Part shown: one piece after another, positions 29,018 through 55,896 of the stretch
Numbering within the stretch: the first letter of the stretch is position 1
Layout of the letters: each line of letters opens with the position of its first letter
Assembly (NCBI GenBank): GCA_025463215.1
Contig: JAOBWF010000234.1
Span: forward strand, 1,822-65,821
DNA length: 64,000 nucleotides
Origin: Acidobacteriota bacterium
Lineage (GTDB): Bacteria; Acidobacteriota; Vicinamibacteria; Vicinamibacterales; CAVVIG01
Direction: 5' to 3'
Program-made: the position numbers and the translations under genes
The notes under the pieces: generated by a model
Database searches by the model: none
What the model saw: only the letters and a program-made list of their open reading frames with translations
What the model was told of the DNA's origin: nothing

Positions 29018-29611
29018 CTAGACGGCGCGAACCAGCGGCGTATCGACCGCGTGTTCCGCCACGAACCAGACTTGCAGCTCGTTCTGGCGGATGACGCTGC
29101 TGACGACGAGATCGTTGGTGCCCTCGTCGCCGCGCTCCGCCGCGACCCGCGCCATCGCGCGCGATTCCTCGAGTACGATCTCGTGCGCATGCAGCAGTCG
29201 TGAGATCTGGACCGGGGCCTGCTCGCGCCCCCTGGGCGGCCGCGGGATCAGTGTCGTCTCGGCGATGTCGTGCGCCATCGCCAGGCTCACGCCGCCGAGC
29301 AACTGGATGCGCTCCGCGATCGCGTCGACCAGCTCGTTCTGCTCTTCGTAGTGCTTGTCGAACAGGAGATGAAGCTGATAGAAGGTCGGGCCCGACGCCT
29401 GCCAGTGGTGCTTCTTGTAGAGGTCTCGAAGCGTGATCACGTCGGCCAGCAACTGGTTCAGATTCTCAACGCTTTCCCGGCAGACGTTCTCGGACAACGC
29501 GATCGGCAGCTTGATCAACTGCCCGTACGGCTGCGTTTCGTGGGCCTGCTGATGCAGCATCGGCTCGGCGCGGCGCAGCGCATTCTCGTCTTCATTCGGT
29601 CGTTTGGCCAT
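29018..29611 (-). CDS. dps: Dps family DNA-protection/ferritin-like protein
   Basis: LNQLLADVITLRDLYKKHHWQASGPTFYQLHLLFDKHYEEQNELVDAIAERIQLLGG. Start at MAKRPNEDEN (ATG 29609-29611). The 546-aa track ORF is an artefactual extension. Confidence 0.85.
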   Translation of the reverse strand: MAKRPNEDENALRRAEPMLHQQAHETQPYGQLIKLPIALSENVCRESVENLNQLLADVITLRDLYKKHHWQASGPTFYQLHLLFDKHYEEQNELVDAIAERIQLLGGVSLAMAHDIAETTLIPRPPRGREQAPVQISRLLHAHEIVLEESRAMARVAAERGDEGTNDLVVSSVIRQNELQVWFVAEHAVDTPLVRAV

Positions 29612-29794
29612 GCTGAATCCGAAGGCAAAGGCGGGGCCACGTGGAAGCGTGCTGATGCCGGCGAAAACGCCGCCACGATGCGCCCTGTGCGCAAGAACGC
29701 TCACGAGTGTCTGCGTCCGGCGCGCACTCTTCACACCGTTCCCGCAACCGTTCCCACGGCGCGTGATGGCACTGATGTTGCCCCGTCGGTCCTG

Positions 29795-31267
29795 ATGATA
29801 CGCCCCGGCAGCCGCGGGTTCGCGCTGATCGCGGCGACGCTGACCTGCGCCGCGTGCGGCAGCGGGGCGGCGCCTCTCCCGGATCCGCCGGTCGTGCGCT
29901 CGCGCGACGGATTGGCGGAAATGACATTGACCGCGACGCGGGCCACCGATGGCCGTCACGCGTTCGCCTTCGACGGACAAGACGTGGCGCCGACAATCCG
30001 GATCGCGCCGGGGGACACGTTGAGAATCCACTACGTGAACGCGCTTCCACCCGCTGCCCCGCGCGCGATCCTCGCGGCGCCGATGAACATGAGCAACCTG
30101 CACTTCCACGGCCTGTCCGTCTCTCCGGACCGGCCGGCCGACGACGTGCTCGAGATGATGGCGATGCCGGGAGAGGCGCTCGACTATCGCGTGGCGATCC
30201 CGCGTCACCACCTGCCAGGCCTGCACTGGTATCACACGCACCCGCATGGCGAGAGCCATCAGCAGGTGCTCGACGGCATGTCGGCCGCGCTGATCGTCGA
30301 GGGGATCGAGGCGTACGCACCGCAGGTGCGCGGGCTGCGCGAGCGCGTGCTGGTGATTCGCGCCAGCGACATCGAACACGATCCGCATGCGGCGGCGGCG
30401 CGAGCGCGCGTCGAGGTCGATCGGGCGTCCTGCGGCGAAAGCCATGACCCGGTCGAACGGGTGTTCACGATCAACGGCGTCCTTCGTCCCGAAATAGCGA
30501 TGGCCCCCGGCGAGCGGCAGTTCTGGCGCATCGTCAACGCCGCGGCGGATCGCTACGTCGACATCGCCATTCCCGATCAGCGCTTCGAGGTGGTGGCGTA
30601 CGACGGTCAGCCGATCGCGGACCACGATCCCGCGCACCCCACGCGCCTGGTCGACCACGTGCTCGTCCCGCCCGCGGGCCGGGTCGAAGCGATTGTCACC
30701 GCCCCGGCGCGCGGGGGGCGTTCGGTGTTCCGCACGCGCTGCGTGGACACCGGGCCCGACGGTGATCCGAATCCGGCGATGGTGCTGGCCGACATCGCCA
30801 CGGCGAAGGGCGCCGCGACCCCGGCGACGTCCGCGACCGTCGTGTCGCGCCCCGCGCCGCCCTCCAGGCTGATAGACGCGCAGCCGCTCGAGCGCGAGCC
30901 GCCCGCCTTCACGCTGGTGTTTTCAGAGGACCGGCGAGGGTTCTACATCAACGGGCTCAAGTTTACGGCCGACGCCGCGCCGATGGTGCGCGCCAAGGTC
31001 GGCACCTACCAGCACTGGCTGGTCGTCAACGACTCGCGTGAGCTTCATCCGATGCACATTCACCAGGTGCATTTTCTGGCGTTCCGTGAGAACGGCCAGG
31101 CGATTGCGGACCCACGGTGGCTCGACACCGTCAACGTGAGCGCCGGTGGGTCGGTCGACGTCCTCATGGACTTCACCGACCCGGTGATCAGAGGCATGTC
31201 GGTGTTTCACTGCCATCTTCTGAATCACGAGGACAAGGGGATGATGGCCAAGATCCTGTTCGAGTAG
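29795..31267 (+). CDS. Multicopper oxidase (laccase/CueO-like), probably a lipoprotein
   Basis: Copper motifs LHFHG, HWYHTHPHG, HPMHIHQVHF and FHCHLLNHEDKGMM. Start at MIRPGSRGFALIAATLTCAACGS (ATG 29795). Divergent from dps. Confidence 0.85.
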   Translation: MIRPGSRGFALIAATLTCAACGSGAAPLPDPPVVRSRDGLAEMTLTATRATDGRHAFAFDGQDVAPTIRIAPGDTLRIHYVNALPPAAPRAILAAPMNMSNLHFHGLSVSPDRPADDVLEMMAMPGEALDYRVAIPRHHLPGLHWYHTHPHGESHQQVLDGMSAALIVEGIEAYAPQVRGLRERVLVIRASDIEHDPHAAAARARVEVDRASCGESHDPVERVFTINGVLRPEIAMAPGERQFWRIVNAAADRYVDIAIPDQRFEVVAYDGQPIADHDPAHPTRLVDHVLVPPAGRVEAIVTAPARGGRSVFRTRCVDTGPDGDPNPAMVLADIATAKGAATPATSATVVSRPAPPSRLIDAQPLEREPPAFTLVFSEDRRGFYINGLKFTADAAPMVRAKVGTYQHWLVVNDSRELHPMHIHQVHFLAFRENGQAIADPRWLDTVNVSAGGSVDVLMDFTDPVIRGMSVFHCHLLNHEDKGMMAKILFE

Positions 31268-49932: not shown

Positions 49933-50145
49933 TGGGTCGCATCATCACGGCGTATGCGTATTCGCGTTCATACTCCTGTGCGTAGGCGGAGCGGGCTGGC
50001 GCACTCGCAGCATGACGAGGGTGCCCGGGCGCGAGACGCCGGGGACCAGGGCTTCATTTCAAAGCCATGTCCGGCGCACTTCCTCGACGCACTGGCCTGG
50101 CGCCGCCGCTCCTAGTCACGGCCGCTCGTACGCGTCGTTCCTCGC

Positions 50146-51090
50146 TCAGAAGTTCACCCGGACGCCGCCGTTGATCACGCGCCCATCCGGCGGCGCCCAT
50201 GCGTCCACCGTAAAGCGCCCGTCGGGCGCCCGCGCGGTTCGCAGGAGCGGACTCCAGTCGGTTTGCCGGACGTTGCCCAGGCTCTCCACGTTCACGAACA
50301 GGCGCAGGCGTCCAATCCGCGCTCGACCAATCCACTGAACAGCACGTACGCGTCGCTCTCGCGCCGGTACGGATTGTCCTCGAGCCGCTGCCGGCCGGCG
50401 CCCGCGCCGTCAACACGTACCGGCCGGCGGGAAACAAAGATTGACGACGCCGGCAAGTGCGCCCGCTCCGTAGAGCGCGGACGCGACGCCTTTGATGACT
50501 TCGACCCGCCCGAGATCTGTCGGTGGAATCTGGAGCAGACCGAGACCGCCAACCGCTTCGCCGAACAGCGGCAGGCCGTCCGAGAGCACGCGCGTGTAGC
50601 GGCCGCGCATATCCTGGACGCGCACACTCGCCGCGCCGAGCGACGGCGACGTCGCCTGCACGCGCACGCCGCCCATCTCGTTCAGCATCACGACGATGTC
50701 GCCGGGGGTGATCAGCTGCTTTTCTCGATCTCGTCGCGATCGAGCACTTCGACGCGCATCGTCTGATCTTCGAGCCGCTTGTCCGACCGGGTCGCGGACA
50801 CCGTCACGGTCTCCTCAACCGTCGGCATGGCTTCCAGCTCGATCGTCACGTTCTGCGGCGGCCCGGACGACGATCGTCGTCGTCACCGGTGCGAATCCGA
50901 CTTTGGTCGCGGTGACCTCCAGCCGGCCTGGCGCGATGTCGATCCGGCTCTGACCGTGGCCATCCGTCACGTCGGTCCTTCCTGCAACGACAACCTCCGC
51001 ACCGGCCAGCGGCGCGCCGCCGGCCGTCACCGTGCAGACGAAACCTGACGGAGCCGCTTGTAACGACAACAGCAATGCCAGCATTGCCAT
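50146..51090 (-). pseudogene. Decayed TonB-dependent receptor (CarboxypepD_reg + plug + last beta-strands only; frameshifts and large internal deletion)
   Basis: Three frames carry consecutive pieces. First: MAMLALLLSLQAAPSGFVCTVTAGGAPLAGAEVVVAGRTDVTDGHG. Second: ...TVSATRSDKRLEDQTMRVEVLDRDEIEK / QLITPGDIVVMLNEMGGVRVQATSPSLGAASVRVQDMRG...VEVIKGVASALYGAGA. Third: ...RLRLFVNVESLGNVRQTDWSPLL...DGRVINGGVRVNF*. About 0.95 kb in total, far too short for a barrel. Confidence 0.65.
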
Positions 51091-51457
51091 ACACGCCTCC
51101 CCTGCATCCACGAGGGTCGAGACGATTCGCGGCGTTAGATGGTGCGAGGAGAGTGGTCGAGGTCGGTGTGAACATCCGCGATCGGTGCCGGTGCACCCGG
51201 CTCACAGACCCGGCTCACGATCTCGAGACGGACGAGGTCACTGACTCGGCGGGAGGCCGCGGCGGAGAGCAGGTCGGACAGTCTGCGCTCATCGCTGTTG
51301 ACTGCGTGGTTGTGAGGCCGCGTTGATCGCATCCGTCCGAGCAGAACCGCGGATCGAGGCACGCGATCGTGCCGAGGAGCACGAACAAGGCTGAGGCGAC
51401 GAGGCGCTCCGCCAGAGTATAGGGCTTGCGCGGTCGCTCGCCCACGCGCAGAATTGA

Positions 51458-51820
51458 GTGATGCAGCGCCGCTCACGACTCCGCGTCATCACCCGGACGC
51501 TGGTCGTCGTCGCGTCGATCGCGGTCAGTTCGTTCGCGGATCTCAGAGCCGCCGCGACGGCGATGGACTGCTGCCTCAAGACCAACTACGCATGTGCCGG
51601 GTTGAGCGCGCCGGACGATTGCTGCCAGCACATGGGTCACACGCGCGAGACGACCGCGGCCGGGACGCTGGTGACGGCGCCCGCTGTGGGCCCCGCTCGT
51701 CAACCCGTCGCTCCAGAACTCGGCCCCGATCCTGGTGTTCCGACCAGAGATCCGGTGGCCGCCGCGTTCACACGTCCGCACGATCCGCCCCACCTGCATA
51801 CGTTCAGCCTGCTGATCTGA
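51458..51820 (+). CDS. Secreted Cys/His-rich small protein (putative metal-binding)
   Basis: Signal-like RLRVITRTLVVVASIAVSSFA followed by MDCCLKTNYACAGLSAPDDCCQHMGH. First gene of the mer-like operon. Confidence 0.55.
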   Translation: MMQRRSRLRVITRTLVVVASIAVSSFADLRAAATAMDCCLKTNYACAGLSAPDDCCQHMGHTRETTAAGTLVTAPAVGPARQPVAPELGPDPGVPTRDPVAAAFTRPHDPPHLHTFSLLI

Positions 51821-51877
51821 TTCCCGCCGACGCGTCACATCTCGGGGTGTGCCTCCACGTCTGAAAGGTAGGGAATC

Positions 51878-52255
51878 ATGCGCGAACGCTTCGTCAGTCT
51901 GCTCGGCCTGACATCATCGCTGACCACGCTCGTCTGTTGAACGCTGCCGATTGTATTCGTGAGCCTAGGTCTAGGCTCCGTCATCGGCTCGGCATTCGAA
52001 GCGGCTCCATGGCTGATGCAGGTTGGCCGTCATAAGACGGCGATCTTCGTCATCGTCGGTGCGCTGCTCTGTGTCAATTACTGGCTCGCCGTCGTCCGGC
52101 CGAGGCAGATGAACTGCGCGCCTGGCGAGATGTGTCACATCGACAGCCCCGCGATGCGCGCCAACCGCGTGCTGTTCTGGATCAGCGTCGCCATTTACGC
52201 CGGGGCCGTGTCGTTCACCTATGCGGCGCTCTGGTGGGTACGGATGCAGTCATGA
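51878..52255 (+). CDS. MerT-like metal transporter with in-frame TGA at 51938-51940 (second position of the TM1 Cys-Cys motif)
   Basis: MRERFVSLLGLTSSLTTLVC-TGA-TLPIVFVSLGLGSVIGSAFEAAPWLMQVGRHKTAIFVIVGALLCVNYWLAVVRPRQMNCAPGEMCHIDSPAMRANRVLFWISVAIYAGAV. Compare MerT ...ACCLGPLVL... and ...CKPGEVC... The track ORF (GTG 51959) is the same frame. Confidence 0.6.
51961..51978 (+). other. SECIS-like stem-loop 3' of the MerT-like TGA
   Basis: GAGCCUA-GGUC-UAGGCUC: perfect 7-8 bp stem with apical loop GGUC (the same tetraloop as the E. coli fdhF SECIS apex). The GGUC lies 28-31 nt after the UGA. Confidence 0.4.
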
Positions 52256-53103
52256 ACATGAAACTGAGAACCGTGTTGGCCGCGGGCGCCCTACTGGTCA
52301 GCGCGCGCATCGCCGCGGCGTCCGGCCACGGGCCGGTGTTCGGCGCGGCCACGCCCACGCTCGGTCGCGGCGGCTGGAGCGTGGACCAGGCGTGGACGCT
52401 CCGCGGCGGCGATGACGACCAGCGTCAGCAGATGCTGAAGACGATGCTGTCCTTCGGGATCACGGAGAACCTGCAGGTGTCGGGTTCCGTCCCGCTGGCG
52501 ATGAGCGACGGCCGGCTGGCGCCGGCCCGAATGATGAGCGCGATGTCGAGCGATCGCGAGTTCGAAGGACTCGTCTCGTACCGCTTTCAGCGCCGCGCCG
52601 TCGGCATCGGCGGACGTCAGGAGAGCACCGCTTTCATCGGCGGTACCGCGCCGCTGGAATCGCGCCGCGACGGTGTCGGCGCCGGCCCGTCCATCGAAGC
52701 GGGCGCGTCGACCGGCTACGCCTCACGCGCGCACTACGTCTGGGTCGGCGGCAGCGTGCAGCACTTCACCGATCGCGAGGGCGATCGCCTCGGCGAATCC
52801 CGTCTCGTGACGTTCGTCTACGGGTACCGCCCTCCCGCTTTGCGGACAGAAGCCGGCAAGCCGGACCTGCGCTTCTTCGTCGAGGCCACCGCTGAAGATC
52901 GAGGCGCCGCGCGCCTCTCGGGCATCGAATCAGGAGGCTCCGCCCGCACGGTGTTCGTGGGGCCCAGCAGCCTGCTGTTGCACAAGGCCGTCGCGCTCGA
53001 AGCCGGCGTGCTGTTCCCGGCGTATCAGATCGTACCCGCCGGATCGGTGAAGGAGCGCGTCCGCATCACGGTCAACGTCGCATATTTCTTCTGGCTAAAA
53101 TAG
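52252..53103 (+). CDS. Putative outer-membrane beta-barrel protein
   Basis: MNMKLRTVLAAGALLVSARIAAASGHG signal peptide, alternating-pattern strands and aromatic C-terminal strand VNVAYFFWLK. ATG overlaps the MerT-like stop (ATGA). Confidence 0.55.
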   Translation: MNMKLRTVLAAGALLVSARIAAASGHGPVFGAATPTLGRGGWSVDQAWTLRGGDDDQRQQMLKTMLSFGITENLQVSGSVPLAMSDGRLAPARMMSAMSSDREFEGLVSYRFQRRAVGIGGRQESTAFIGGTAPLESRRDGVGAGPSIEAGASTGYASRAHYVWVGGSVQHFTDREGDRLGESRLVTFVYGYRPPALRTEAGKPDLRFFVEATAEDRGAARLSGIESGGSARTVFVGPSSLLLHKAVALEAGVLFPAYQIVPAGSVKERVRITVNVAYFFWLK

Positions 53104-53111
53104 GAGCAGCC

Positions 53112-53534
53112 ATGACCTTCACGCACATCGTGTCGACGACACTCGCGCTCGTCCTCCTGGCCGCCGTTCCGGCGCGCGCCGAGCTTCACCACACCGAGAT
53201 CAAGACGCTCGGAATGGATTGAGAGATCTGCGCCCACGCCGTGCGCGTGGCCATGCAGAAAGTGGACGGCGTCGAGACGGTTCGTGTCAGCCTGAAAGAT
53301 GGTCTGACGATTCTCGATCTCAAACCAGGGAACAGTGTCACCTTGGCGAACCTTCGCCAGATCATCAAGAACAACGGGTTCGTCTCCAAAGAGGCGACCG
53401 TCGACGCATCCGGGCGGCCGGATAGCTCCGACACGTTCGTCGTCAGCGGAACGAACGAGCGCATTGCGATCGCACGGCCACCGCAATCAGTCGGAGCCGA
53501 CTGGCGGCTATCCGTGACGGCGCCGAAGCGGTGA
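53112..53534 (+). CDS. MerP-like periplasmic heavy-metal-associated (HMA) protein with in-frame TGA at 53220-53222 (first position of CxxC)
   Basis: MTFTHIVSTTLALVLLAAVPARAELHHTEIKTLGMD-TGA-EICAHAVRVAMQKVDGVETVRVSLKDGLTILDLKPGNSVTLANLRQIIKNNGF. Compare the HMA signature GM(T/D)CxxC. The track ORF 53241-53534 is the same frame. Confidence 0.6.
53234..53250 (+). other. SECIS-like stem-loop 3' of the MerP-like TGA
   Basis: CCACGC-CGUGC-GCGUGG. The stem starts 12 nt after the UGA and the loop GU lies 19-20 nt after it. Confidence 0.35.
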
Positions 53535-55344: not shown

Positions 55345-55896
55345 ATGAAACGAACAGCATCCATGGCGGCGGCGATCTTTCTTGCGACTACGTTGGGGGC
55401 AATGGCGCAGAGCCCGAGTACGACGACCGCGAGCAGCAGCACGACCGCCAGTGACAAAATTACAGTGAGTGGATGCCTGCAAGACGGATCTGGCGGTTCG
55501 AGCACGACCGCGAGCGCCTCGACCACGGCGTCGCAGTCGGGCAGCTACGTCCTGATGGCGAGCGCGCCGCCGAACGCGGACACCGCCGCCGGAACGAGCG
55601 GCAGCACCACGAGCAGCACGACGGCAACTGGGACGACCGGCACCACGAGCAGCGCGGGCTCGTCGATGCACAACGCCTCGTACGTGCTCGAGGGCAGCAG
55701 CAATGAGCTGAAGAATCATGTCGGCCATCGCGTTGAAGTAACGGGAACGCTCGAGAACAACACGGACCATGGCGCCGCGTCGACGGCGACATCGACGACT
55801 ACCAGCGGCTCGGCATCGTCCCGCATGAGCGACGGTGCGAAGACGCTCAAGGTCTCTTCGGTCCGGATGATCGCTGCGGACTGCTCGTCGAAGTAG
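55345..55896 (+). CDS. Secreted Ser/Thr-rich low-complexity protein
   Basis: Signal peptide MKRTASMAAAIFLATTLGAMAQS. Two similar modules (KITVSGCLQDGSGGSS...SYVLMAS and SYVLEGSSNELKNHVGHRVEVTGTL) are separated by T/S/G/A runs. Confidence 0.6.
   Translation: MKRTASMAAAIFLATTLGAMAQSPSTTTASSSTTASDKITVSGCLQDGSGGSSTTASASTTASQSGSYVLMASAPPNADTAAGTSGSTTSSTTATGTTGTTSSAGSSMHNASYVLEGSSNELKNHVGHRVEVTGTLENNTDHGAASTATSTTTSGSASSRMSDGAKTLKVSSVRMIAADCSSK

What the first reader, a model, noticed from the sequence alone, without database searches (positions are those of the whole stretch)
53220..53250. MerP-like HMA protein with UxxC in place of the CxxC metal-binding motif
Seen: a signal peptide followed by ...EIKTLGMD-TGA-EICAHAVRVAMQKVDGVETVRV..., which is the canonical HMA beta-alpha-beta start G-M-(T/D)-C-x-x-C with TGA at the first Cys. 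The frame is identical to track ORF 53241-53534, which on its own would lack both the signal peptide and the metal site. The hairpin CCACGC-CGUGC-GCGUGG starts 12 nt after the UGA, with loop GU at +19/+20. UxxC is the classic redox or metal selenoprotein motif.
Basis: partly seen in the sequence, partly recalled or inferred. Interest (0 to 1): 0.7.

Follow-up and report, generated by a model that had tools for sequence, protein, structure and literature searches.

The report
Secreted selenocysteine metal-binding HMA protein
The "stop" codon at 53220 almost certainly encodes selenocysteine in the metal-binding site of a secreted MerP/CopZ-like protein, one of two probable selenoproteins in a four-gene metal-handling operon that is common in soil Acidobacteria and is annotated in public databases as truncated hypothetical proteins.

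Summary

- **The gene.** TGA 53220-53222 joins a signal peptide plus first beta-strand (53112-53219) to ORF 53241-53534. The result is a 140-residue HMA-fold protein with a G-M-D-U-x-x-C site.
- **Conservation.** All 93 close relatives recovered carry TGA here, with protein-level conservation on both sides. These come from 11 Vicinamibacteria/Acidobacteriota genomes and about 80 soil contigs. More distant relatives carry Cys (GMDCxxCAH).
- **The hairpin.** The 17-nt hairpin at 53234-53250 shows no synonymous variation across 76 distinct sequences. Distant relatives keep it through a compensatory change. Distant Cys forms lack it. It occupies the same nucleotides relative to UGA as the E. coli fdhF SECIS.
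- **A second selenoprotein.** A MerT-like gene two genes upstream has its own conserved TGA (51938, a C-U motif) and a GGUC-loop hairpin.
- **The operon.** It also encodes a predicted outer-membrane barrel and a Cys-rich protein, which suggests a soft-metal relay.

HMA and MerT selenoproteins are already known, so this is a new, unannotated family of a known kind. Two things were not shown: Sec machinery in the same genome, and selenium in the protein.

The parts
53112..53534 (+). Full gene for the secreted HMA-fold selenoprotein: 140 residues, ATG at 53112, Sec codon at 53220, true stop TGA at 53532-53534. A GGAG ribosome-binding site lies 5-8 nt upstream.
   Evidence: reading frame; Pfam HMA 24.9 bits; CopZ/MerP/UxxU hits, all below cut-off; HMA fold.
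53112..53180 (+). Signal peptide MTFTHIVSTTLALVLLAAVPARA, ending in an A-x-A cleavage motif.
   Evidence: Read directly from the sequence. Relatives differ in sequence here but keep the hydrophobic core and A-x-A end. Cleavage is inferred, not predicted with a tool.
53220..53222 (+). In-frame TGA, the proposed selenocysteine codon and first position of the U-x-x-C metal site. The partner Cys codon TGC is at 53229-53231.
   Evidence: TGA in 93/93 close relatives. Cys (TGC) at the aligned position in 68 of 150 family representatives and in loci L094-L096.
53234..53250 (+). SECIS-like apical hairpin CCACGC-CGUGC-GCGUGG: 17 nt, beginning after an 11-nt spacer, with loop G and U at nt 22-23 from the U of UGA.
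   Evidence: No synonymous variation at codons +4 to +9. Upper stem paired in 99.7% of cells across 63 distinct sequences. Compensatory C-G to U-A change in L101, and a different hairpin at the same place in L102. Same nt 15-31 span as the E. coli fdhF hairpin.
53227..53259 (+). Possible lower-stem extension of the hairpin (UCUGCG / UGCAGA).
   Evidence: Weak. 88% of cells pair, but one pair breaks in 26/63 sequences (the Lys-for-Gln subgroup) and covariation is no better than shuffles.
51878..52255 (+). MerT-like inner-membrane protein gene with an in-frame TGA at 51938-51940. The MerT TM1 Cys-Cys pair reads Cys-Sec here (TTLVC-U-TLP). The cytoplasmic-loop pair is C-APGEM-C.
   Evidence: reading frame. 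Pfam MerT covers profile positions 12-115 of 116 once the TGA is read through: 30.8 bits against a cut-off of 32.9. TGA in 43/43 relatives with enough upstream DNA, 1180-1600 nt (mostly about 1280) upstream of the HMA TGA.
51961..51978 (+). SECIS-like hairpin of the MerT-like gene, GAGCCUA-GGUC-UAGGCUC.
   Evidence: Rare codons CTA and GGT are fixed in 39/39 sequences. There is a G-C to C-G compensatory change in 3 sequences and 97% pairing, and no shuffle reaches the observed covariation score. The loop GGUC is identical to the fdhF loop.
52252..53103 (+). Gene for a 283-residue secreted protein predicted to be an outer-membrane beta-barrel. Its ATG overlaps the MerT-like stop codon (ATGA). 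It lies directly upstream of the HMA gene in both Sec-type and Cys-type systems.
   Evidence: No Pfam or NCBIfam hit. AlphaFold pLDDT 75, about 12-14 long strands. Foldseek best matches are FapF and the COG4313 channel, TM about 0.6. Synteny in L001, L095, L096, L097, L102, L103.
51458..51820 (+). Gene for a 120-residue protein with an N-terminal hydrophobic segment, the motif CC-x6-C-x9-CC-x-H-x2-H, and a conserved C-terminus RPHDPPHLHTFSLLI.
   Evidence: Sequence. Conserved upstream of the MerT-like gene in L001, L023, L053, L054 and L078. No family hit.

Best explanation
The gene 53112-53534 encodes one 140-residue secreted protein. UGA 53220 is decoded as selenocysteine. This is most likely done by a SelB-type elongation factor that binds the 17-nt hairpin starting 11 nt downstream of the UGA.

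The mature protein is an HMA (beta-alpha-beta-beta-alpha-beta) metallochaperone-type domain with a beta-rich C-terminal extension. Its metal-binding loop reads G-M-D-Sec-E-I-Cys.

It works in the cell envelope together with three co-transcribed products:
- a predicted outer-membrane beta-barrel channel;
- a MerT-like inner-membrane protein whose first-helix Cys-Cys pair is Cys-Sec;
- a small Cys/His-rich protein.

The proposed mechanism follows the MerP-to-MerT hand-over of mer operons. A soft, thiophilic metal ion, Hg(II) or Cu(I)/Ag(I), enters or is captured in the periplasm. It is bound by the selenolate/thiolate pair of the HMA protein, passed by ligand exchange to the Cys-Sec pair of the MerT-like protein, and then to that protein's cytoplasmic C-x5-C loop.

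Shown here: the recoding signature, the fold, the conserved operon and the Sec/Cys alternation. Inferred: Sec rather than another amino acid at the UGA, metal binding, which metal, and the direction of transport.
For: 1. **Conserved UGA.** TGA is present in 93/93 close relatives. The peptide AELRHVEIKTLGMD and a variable but always signal-peptide-like N-terminus are conserved in the same frame upstream.
2. **Sec/Cys alternation.** Of 150 family representatives at 50% identity, 68 are full-length GMDCxxC proteins and 75 are truncated immediately after the site. Two of these 150, and four further gene calls among the close hits, read the TGA as W.
3. **RNA-level selection on the hairpin.** Codons +4 to +9 are GCC CAC GCC GTG (C/A)GC GTG with zero synonymous variation. 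Other invariant residues carry 1.3-1.9 bits.
4. **The hairpin tracks the UGA.** Distant Cys forms encode the same A-H-A/G-V with other codons and have no hairpin (L095, L096). A close TGC form (L094) still has it. Among distant Sec forms, L101 keeps it through a C-G to U-A double change, and L102 has a different hairpin at the same position with GU at nt 22-23.
5. **Geometry.** The hairpin spans nt 15-31, the same span as the E. coli fdhF hairpin.
6. **A second recoded gene.** The MerT-like gene in the same operon independently shows a conserved UGA, a hairpin with rare codons fixed, and a compensatory G-C to C-G change.
7. **TGA is otherwise a normal stop.** It ends 17 of 36 high-GC3 ORFs in the window.
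8. **Fold.** pLDDT is 82.6. PDB matches are CopZ, HMA7, ATP7B, Atx1 and MerP, with target-normalised TM 0.8-0.86.
9. **Metal context.** In other loci the neighbours include a MerR-family regulator, zf_CopZ and DUF1775 genes, or a PadR regulator with an RND (CusB/CzcB-like) efflux system.
10. **Phylum.** Acidobacteriota include Sec users (PMC1794560, PMC12013277, PMC13582414).
Against: - No selA, selB, selD or tRNA-Sec was found in the window or in 483 kb of related loci. These genes need not be linked, but the Sec trait is unverified for this lineage.
- There is no Rfam SECIS match at gathering or relaxed thresholds.
- The hairpin's upper stem is invariant within the close clade. Covariation therefore rests on two distant sequences for this gene, plus the sister MerT-like gene.
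- The single-sequence folding energy is not unusual.
- No merA or other obvious cytoplasmic sink for an imported toxic metal lies in the operon, so the metal and the direction of transport are guesses.
- The Pfam HMA score only just reaches its cut-off.
Confidence: 0.82

Rival explanations
1. UGA 53220 is read through, but not as selenocysteine. One route is Cys delivered by a Sec-like tRNA-Cys with a SelB-like factor. Another is Trp or Cys inserted by near-cognate suppression that the hairpin stimulates.
For: No Sec machinery could be found in the sequence held. Natural recoding variants of the Sec system have been described; this rests on my own knowledge, not on a test here. The hairpin and conserved UGA would look the same under this reading.
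Against: The hairpin has the geometry and GU loop of SelB-dependent SECIS elements. Homologues alternate only between TGA and Cys codons at a metal-ligand position, which is the classic Sec/Cys pattern. Keeping an inefficient UGA in 93/93 genes, in two genes of the operon, is hard to explain if plain Cys were the product, because TGC would do. The one TGC form (L094) shows that this route is open.
Confidence: 0.08
2. UGA 53220 is an ordinary stop. The locus makes a 36-residue secreted peptide and, separately, a protein of about 93-97 residues starting at GTG 53241 or ATG 53253. This is how public gene callers annotate it.
For: Gene callers produce exactly these two ORFs. GenBank lists the downstream piece as a hypothetical protein (HEV3060750.1, HYB95430.1). 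UGA recoding is never 100% efficient, so some termination product is expected in any case.
Against: - The stop would cut an HMA fold between beta-1 and alpha-1. That removes the signal peptide, the first strand and one metal ligand from the rest.
- Full-length Cys homologues are continuous across the site.
- The frame and peptide are conserved on both sides.
- The start codons of the called downstream ORFs shift between relatives, to profile positions 38, 43 or 47.
- Synonymous-site freezing of the hairpin is left unexplained.
Confidence: 0.05
3. The organism uses a genetic code in which TGA is a sense codon (Trp or Gly), as some automatic calls imply: four JGI proteins read W at the site.
For: P0001, P0002, P0003 and P0013 were called with W at the site.
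Against: TGA ends 17 of 36 high-GC3 ORFs in the window, including this gene and the MerT-like gene. All genome hits are Acidobacteriota, which use the standard bacterial code. The W calls come from contigs of about 1 kb.
Confidence: 0.01

Closest known systems
MerP, the periplasmic Hg(II)-binding protein of mer operons (TIGR02052; PDB 1afi, 1osd)
   Same: Signal peptide followed by one HMA domain. Metal site G-M-x-C-x-x-C in the beta-1/alpha-1 loop. Encoded in one operon with a MerT-type membrane protein. Structural match with target-normalised TM 0.74-0.80.
   Different: The first ligand is Sec, not Cys. It scores 37 bits against the equivalog cut-off of 92.55. It has an extra beta-rich extension of about 45 residues. 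No merA or merR is in the window. The outer-membrane barrel gene lies between the MerT-like and HMA genes.
Known HMA-type selenoproteins: the UxxC N-terminal domain of an E1-E2 cation-transporting ATPase, the UxxU metal-binding protein NF041115, and the MerT/CopZ fusion-like selenoprotein NF045683 (reviews PMC9312934, PMC13188914)
   Same: Sec replaces a ligand Cys of the HMA CxxC site. A SECIS lies in the coding region just downstream. The predicted role is in heavy-metal handling.
   Different: It scores far below the cut-offs of both NCBIfam models: 31.6 against 95, and 19.9 against 375. It is a free, secreted, single-Sec protein with a C-terminal extension. It is neither a cytoplasmic ATPase domain nor a fusion. 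Its lineage and habitat (soil Vicinamibacteria) also differ. The reviews' tables contained none of the terms I searched that would name such a family.
MerT-family selenoproteins with a C-U motif (Haft preprint 10.1101/2022.07.06.499078; 'putative mercuric transport protein', PF02411, in PMC9312934)
   Same: The partner gene at 51878-52255 has the C-U dipeptide in the first transmembrane helix, where MerT has C-C.
   Different: It is below the Pfam and NCBIfam MerT cut-offs: 30.8 against 32.9, and 27.7 against 150. Here it is paired with a second selenoprotein that would be its metal donor.
E. coli fdhF SECIS, the reference bacterial selenocysteine insertion element
   Same: A 17-nt apical hairpin occupying nt 15-31 from the U of UGA, with G and U in the loop. 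From my own knowledge, the 11-nt spacing and the loop G-U are the reported requirements for SelB binding.
   Different: The loop is CGUGC rather than GGUC. There is no bulged U. The stem sequences are unrelated. No Rfam SECIS model matches.

Membership tests
Bacterial selenoprotein gene (UGA-Sec with an in-ORF SECIS) | In-frame UGA conserved among orthologues, with protein-coding conservation on both sides | tested here: met
   93/93 loci have TGA, and the flanking peptides are conserved in frame.
Bacterial selenoprotein gene (UGA-Sec with an in-ORF SECIS) | Homologues with Cys aligned to the UGA | tested here: met
   68 of 150 representatives have GMDCxxC. TGC confirmed in L094, L095 and L096.
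Bacterial selenoprotein gene (UGA-Sec with an in-ORF SECIS) | Stem-loop shortly downstream of the UGA, with G/U in the apical loop, maintained by selection | tested here: met
   Hairpin at nt 15-31, the same span as fdhF. Synonymous variation is zero. Compensatory or alternative hairpins in L101 and L102. Absent in distant Cys forms. No Rfam model match.
Bacterial selenoprotein gene (UGA-Sec with an in-ORF SECIS) | selA, selB, selC (tRNA-Sec) and selD in the same genome | not testable with these tools
   None in the 64-kb window or in 483 kb of related loci. Whole genomes could not be scanned. Only phylum-level literature support exists (PMC1794560, PMC12013277).
Bacterial selenoprotein gene (UGA-Sec with an in-ORF SECIS) | Selenium found in the protein | not testable with these tools
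   Requires an experiment.
HMA domain (Pfam PF00403) | Profile score at or above the gathering threshold | tested here: met
   24.9 bits against 24.8, with Cys substituted for Sec. This is borderline.
HMA domain (Pfam PF00403) | Beta-alpha-beta-beta-alpha-beta fold with the metal site in the beta-1/alpha-1 loop | tested here: met
   AlphaFold model with pLDDT 82.6 and elements E24-32, H36-48, E53-59, E64-69, H77-86, E90-98. Foldseek matches to CopZ, Atx1, ATP7B and MerP.
MerP (TIGR02052 equivalog) | Score above the equivalog cut-off | tested here: not met
   37.1 bits against 92.55.
MerP (TIGR02052 equivalog) | Part of a mer operon with merR, merT and merA | tested here: not met
   A MerT-like gene is present, but no MerA or MerR was seen among the window ORFs scanned. 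A MerR-family regulator is next to the operon in L097 only.
UxxU metal-binding (seleno)protein NF041115 | Score above the cut-off, and a UxxU motif | tested here: not met
   31.6 bits against 95. The motif is UxxC.
MerT/CopZ fusion-like selenoprotein NF045683 | Fused MerT and HMA in one protein, scoring above the cut-off | tested here: not met
   19.9 and 21.1 bits against 375. These are two separate genes with another gene between them.

The most novel reading that the evidence does not exclude
Abundant soil Vicinamibacteria (Acidobacteriota) carry an unannotated four-gene envelope system in which both hand-over sites of a MerP-to-MerT-type metal relay have been upgraded to selenocysteine. 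The sites are U-x-x-C in a secreted HMA protein and C-U in the membrane protein. The relay is fed by a dedicated outer-membrane barrel. This would be a selenium-dependent high-affinity pathway for capturing or importing a soft metal (Hg, Cu, Ag or similar), and it would link selenium availability to metal cycling in soils.
Probability: 0.45. Interest if true: 0.65.

Novelty: new member of a known kind. Interest (0 to 1): 0.55.

Why it matters
**Annotation.** Hundreds of public sequences of this family are filed as truncated "hypothetical proteins". Examples are HEV3060750.1 and HYB95430.1 and 114 of the 120 nearest database hits. A specific family model would correct two genes per operon across a common soil lineage.

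**Biology.** The operon adds a secreted, MerP-like member to the short list of metal-handling selenoproteins. It shows donor and acceptor sites of a metal relay both carrying Sec. That gives a direct experimental handle on why selenium is preferred over sulphur for binding soft metals.

**Ecology.** It extends selenoprotein use in soil Acidobacteria, which the selenoproteome reviews I searched do not mention.

Tried and rejected
- **Single-sequence folding.** The energy is no better than shuffled sequence (z = 0.04), so this test is uninformative in 66% GC DNA.
- **Rfam.** No family matched at gathering thresholds over the whole window. A relaxed search over 51850-53350 gave no SECIS match, only chance snoRNA and miRNA hits.
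- **tRNA-Sec.** None in the window or in 22 related loci.
- **Sec machinery.** tblastn with E. coli SelA, SelB and SelD against the window and all held loci gave no hits. Pfam on ten further large window ORFs showed no Sec genes.
- **Lower stem of the hairpin.** Covariation was not convincing.
- **Literature.** A search for Vicinamibacter with selenocysteine terms found nothing relevant.
- **Database look-ups.** The DNA for the Cys-form protein P0160 was not available.
- **Genetic-code reassignment.** Considered and rejected on stop-codon usage.

Full report
**Observation**

The + strand frame starting at ATG 53112 reads MTFTHIVSTTLALVLLAAVPARA ELHHTEIKTLGMD, then TGA at 53220-53222. It continues in the same frame as EICAHAVRVAMQKVDGVETVRV... 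to a stop at 53532-53534. A mechanical ORF list splits this into a 36-residue ORF (53112-53222) and a 97-residue ORF (53241-53534).

A possible lower stem extends it to 53227-53259. Taken alone, its folding energy equals that of shuffled sequence (z = 0.04). The window contains no tRNA gene and no Rfam match. The description is therefore accurate, but the single sequence does not establish significance.

**What the joined protein is**

With Cys substituted for the TGA, the 140-residue protein reaches the Pfam HMA threshold (24.9 against 24.8 bits). It also gives sub-threshold NCBIfam hits to:
- CopZ and MerP;
- the UxxU metal-binding selenoprotein NF041115;
- the MerT/CopZ fusion selenoprotein NF045683.

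An AlphaFold model of a full-length relative has mean pLDDT 82.6. It shows beta-1 (24-32), a loop carrying G-M-D-U, alpha-1 (36-48), beta-2, beta-3, alpha-2 and beta-4. A beta-rich extension follows at about residues 100-135.

The best PDB matches are CopZ (2qif), the HMA7 and ATP7B metal-binding domains, Atx1 and MerP (1osd, 1afi). Target-normalised TM scores are 0.74-0.86. The TGA therefore falls exactly on the first ligand Cys of the HMA site. A stop there would cut the fold between its first strand and first helix.

**Comparative evidence for recoding**

A protein search found 452 relatives. Of the nearest 120, 114 begin just after the site, and four are full-length with W at the site because the TGA was read under another code.

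A search of one genome per species returned 12 loci, all from Vicinamibacteria or other Acidobacteriota MAGs. A metagenome scan returned 80 loci; samples whose proteins matched most closely are soil-type JGI and ENA sets.

Every one of the 93 loci that contains the N-terminal part has TGA at this codon. Upstream of it, the peptide AELRHVEIKTLGMD is nearly invariant. The signal peptide varies in sequence but not in character.

An exhaustive profile search across 50%-identity representatives listed 150 family members:
- 68 are continuous GMDCxxCAH proteins;
- 75 are truncated right after the site;
- 2 carry W at the site;
- 5 did not fit any of these classes.

This is the Sec/Cys alternation expected of a selenoprotein family.

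**The hairpin is under RNA-level selection and tracks the UGA**

In 76 distinct sequences, the codons at +4 to +9 are GCC (73/74), CAC (76/76), GCC (76/76), GTG (76/76), CGC or AGC, and GTG (76/76). This is essentially zero synonymous entropy. Other invariant residues nearby (Val+20, Leu+24, Gly+27) carry 1.7-1.9 bits. The only variable base inside the element is the last loop nucleotide (C or A). The upper stem is paired in 99.7% of cells across 63 distinct sequences.

Because the stem never varies within this clade, covariation comes from further afield:
- L101 (GMD-U-MTCAHVVNV) turns the closing C-G pair into U-A by changes on both sides.
- L102 (GMD-U-MTCAYAVRG) has a different hairpin, GCCU-A-CGCG/GUU/CGCG-GGGC, at the same place, with G and U again at nt 22-23.
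- L103 and L104 keep the original hairpin.

The distant Cys forms L095 and L096 encode A-H-A/G-V with other codons (GCT CAT GCC GTC; GCG CAT GGG GTT) and have no hairpin. One close TGC form (L094) still has the hairpin, as expected after a recent Sec-to-Cys switch.

Folded side by side, the E. coli fdhF element and this one both occupy nt 15-31 counted from the U of UGA. The loops lie at nt 22-25 (GGUC) and nt 21-25 (CGUGC) respectively. From my own knowledge, a 17-nt apical hairpin 11 nt after the UGA, with loop G-U, is the minimal SelB-binding SECIS in E. coli.

**A second recoded gene in the same operon**

ORF 51959-52255 matched only the C-terminal half of MerT. Reading upstream shows ATG 51878 and an in-frame TGA at 51938-51940, in SSLTTLVC-U-TLPIVFVSLGLG. 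With the TGA read through, the match covers MerT profile positions 12-115 of 116 (30.8 bits against 32.9). The MerT first-helix Cys-Cys pair is therefore Cys-Sec here.

All 43 related loci with enough upstream DNA have this TGA. It lies mostly about 1280 nt before the HMA TGA.

Downstream lies GAGCCUA-GGUC-UAGGCUC. In these high-GC genomes the rare codons CTA and GGT are fixed in 39/39 sequences. Three sequences carry a G-C to C-G compensatory change, and no shuffle reaches the observed covariation score.

C-U MerT selenoproteins have been described (preprint 10.1101/2022.07.06.499078; PMC9312934). Two independent UGA-plus-hairpin signatures in one operon make chance, sequencing error or a pseudogene untenable.

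**Excluding simpler readings**

TGA ends 17 of 36 high-GC3 ORFs in the window, including both genes discussed, so the code is standard. A true stop is contradicted by the fold, the continuous Cys homologues, the frame conservation and the frozen synonymous sites.

What cannot be excluded here is read-through with an amino acid other than Sec. No selA, selB, selD or tRNA-Sec is present in the window or in 483 kb of related loci, and whole genomes could not be scanned. Acidobacteriota do include Sec users (PMC1794560, Table 2; PMC12013277, Table 2; PMC13582414).

**The system and how it probably works**

Four genes are packed on one strand:
- a 120-residue protein with a hydrophobic N-terminus, a CC-x6-C-x9-CC-x-H-x2-H motif and a conserved RPHDPPHLHTFSLLI end (51458-51820);
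- the MerT-like selenoprotein (51878-52255);
- a 283-residue secreted protein whose ATG overlaps the previous stop (52252-53103);
- the HMA selenoprotein (53112-53534).

The 283-residue protein has no family hit, and all 120 listed of its 973 database relatives are unnamed or called hypothetical. It models as a beta-barrel of about 12-14 long strands (pLDDT 75). Its closest structural matches are FapF and the COG4313 outer-membrane channel (TM about 0.6). It sits directly upstream of the HMA gene in Sec-type and Cys-type systems alike, so barrel plus HMA protein is the conserved core.

Neighbouring genes elsewhere also point to metals. One locus has a MerR-family regulator with zf_CopZ and DUF1775 genes. 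Another has a PadR regulator with a CusB/CzcB-type RND system.

By analogy with MerP handing Hg(II) to the MerT Cys pair (established knowledge of mer operons), I infer a relay. It runs from the periplasmic U-x-x-C site to the membrane C-U site, and then to the cytoplasmic C-x5-C loop. It would carry a soft metal that passes the barrel. The metal and the direction are not determined. The lack of merA argues against classical mercury detoxification.

**Comparison with what is known, and novelty**

Sec in an HMA site is already known in three forms:
- a UxxC P-type ATPase domain;
- the UxxU protein NF041115;
- the MerT/CopZ fusion NF045683.

MerT C-U proteins are also known. This protein fails the cut-offs of all those models. 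It differs in being a free, secreted, single-Sec HMA protein with a C-terminal extension, partnered with an outer-membrane barrel.

Term searches of the two selenoproteome reviews found no such family, and neither review mentions soil or Acidobacteria. GenBank annotates members as truncated hypothetical proteins. I therefore rate it as a new member of a known kind. It is of moderate interest to specialists and useful for annotation. The two-selenoprotein relay is the most novel aspect.

**Verdict**

Confidence is about 0.8 that this is a genuine selenoprotein gene. Confidence is lower for the proposed metal relay.

Noticed in passing
window 51878-52255 (TGA at 51938-51940; hairpin 51961-51978): A second probable selenoprotein gene. 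It is MerT-like, with the first-helix Cys-Cys pair turned into Cys-Sec. The TGA is conserved in 43/43 relatives, and the GGUC-loop hairpin is held by rare codons and one compensatory change.
   Followed up: yes
window 52252-53103: A 283-residue secreted protein with no family assignment. It is predicted to be an outer-membrane beta-barrel (FapF / COG4313-like). It is always directly upstream of the HMA gene, in both Sec-type and Cys-type systems. Its start overlaps the MerT-like stop (ATGA).
   Followed up: partly
window 51458-51820: A small protein with the motif CC-x6-C-x9-CC-x-H-x2-H and a conserved C-terminus RPHDPPHLHTFSLLI. It is conserved at the head of the operon in several relatives and has no known family.
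   Followed up: partly
L094 158-568 (protein P0121): A close relative has TGC (Cys) at the site but still carries the intact hairpin GUC CAC GCC GUG CGC GUG GC. This looks like a recent Sec-to-Cys switch that left a fossil SECIS.
   Followed up: partly
L102 3835-4203: In a distant Sec-type system the MerT-like gene lies downstream of the HMA gene. It appears to lack the C-C / C-U pair, reading ...GTLLLLSRPSLL... at the aligned place.
   Followed up: no
L013 5399-5653: This is the one genome locus where only the C-terminal two-thirds of the HMA protein is recognisable. No signal peptide or metal site lies upstream. It may be a decayed copy.
   Followed up: no
window 50054-51111, minus strand: Several short overlapping ORFs read by eye like the N-terminus of a TonB-dependent receptor (carboxypeptidase-regulatory-like and plug segments) split across frames. 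This may be a disrupted gene. A TonB-dependent receptor also flanks the Cys-type system in L095.
   Followed up: no
window 29270-31267: A three-domain multicopper oxidase gene lies about 22 kb upstream of the operon.
   Followed up: no
window 55345-55896 and L097 5998-6939: Ser/Thr-rich secreted proteins with weak DUF5818 hits occur near the operon in both the window and L097.
   Followed up: no
proteins P0001, P0002, P0003, P0013, P0156, P0166: Automatic gene calls on short metagenome contigs translated the Sec codon as Trp, apparently by choosing a TGA=Trp code. These are mis-annotations that mask selenoproteins.
   Followed up: partly
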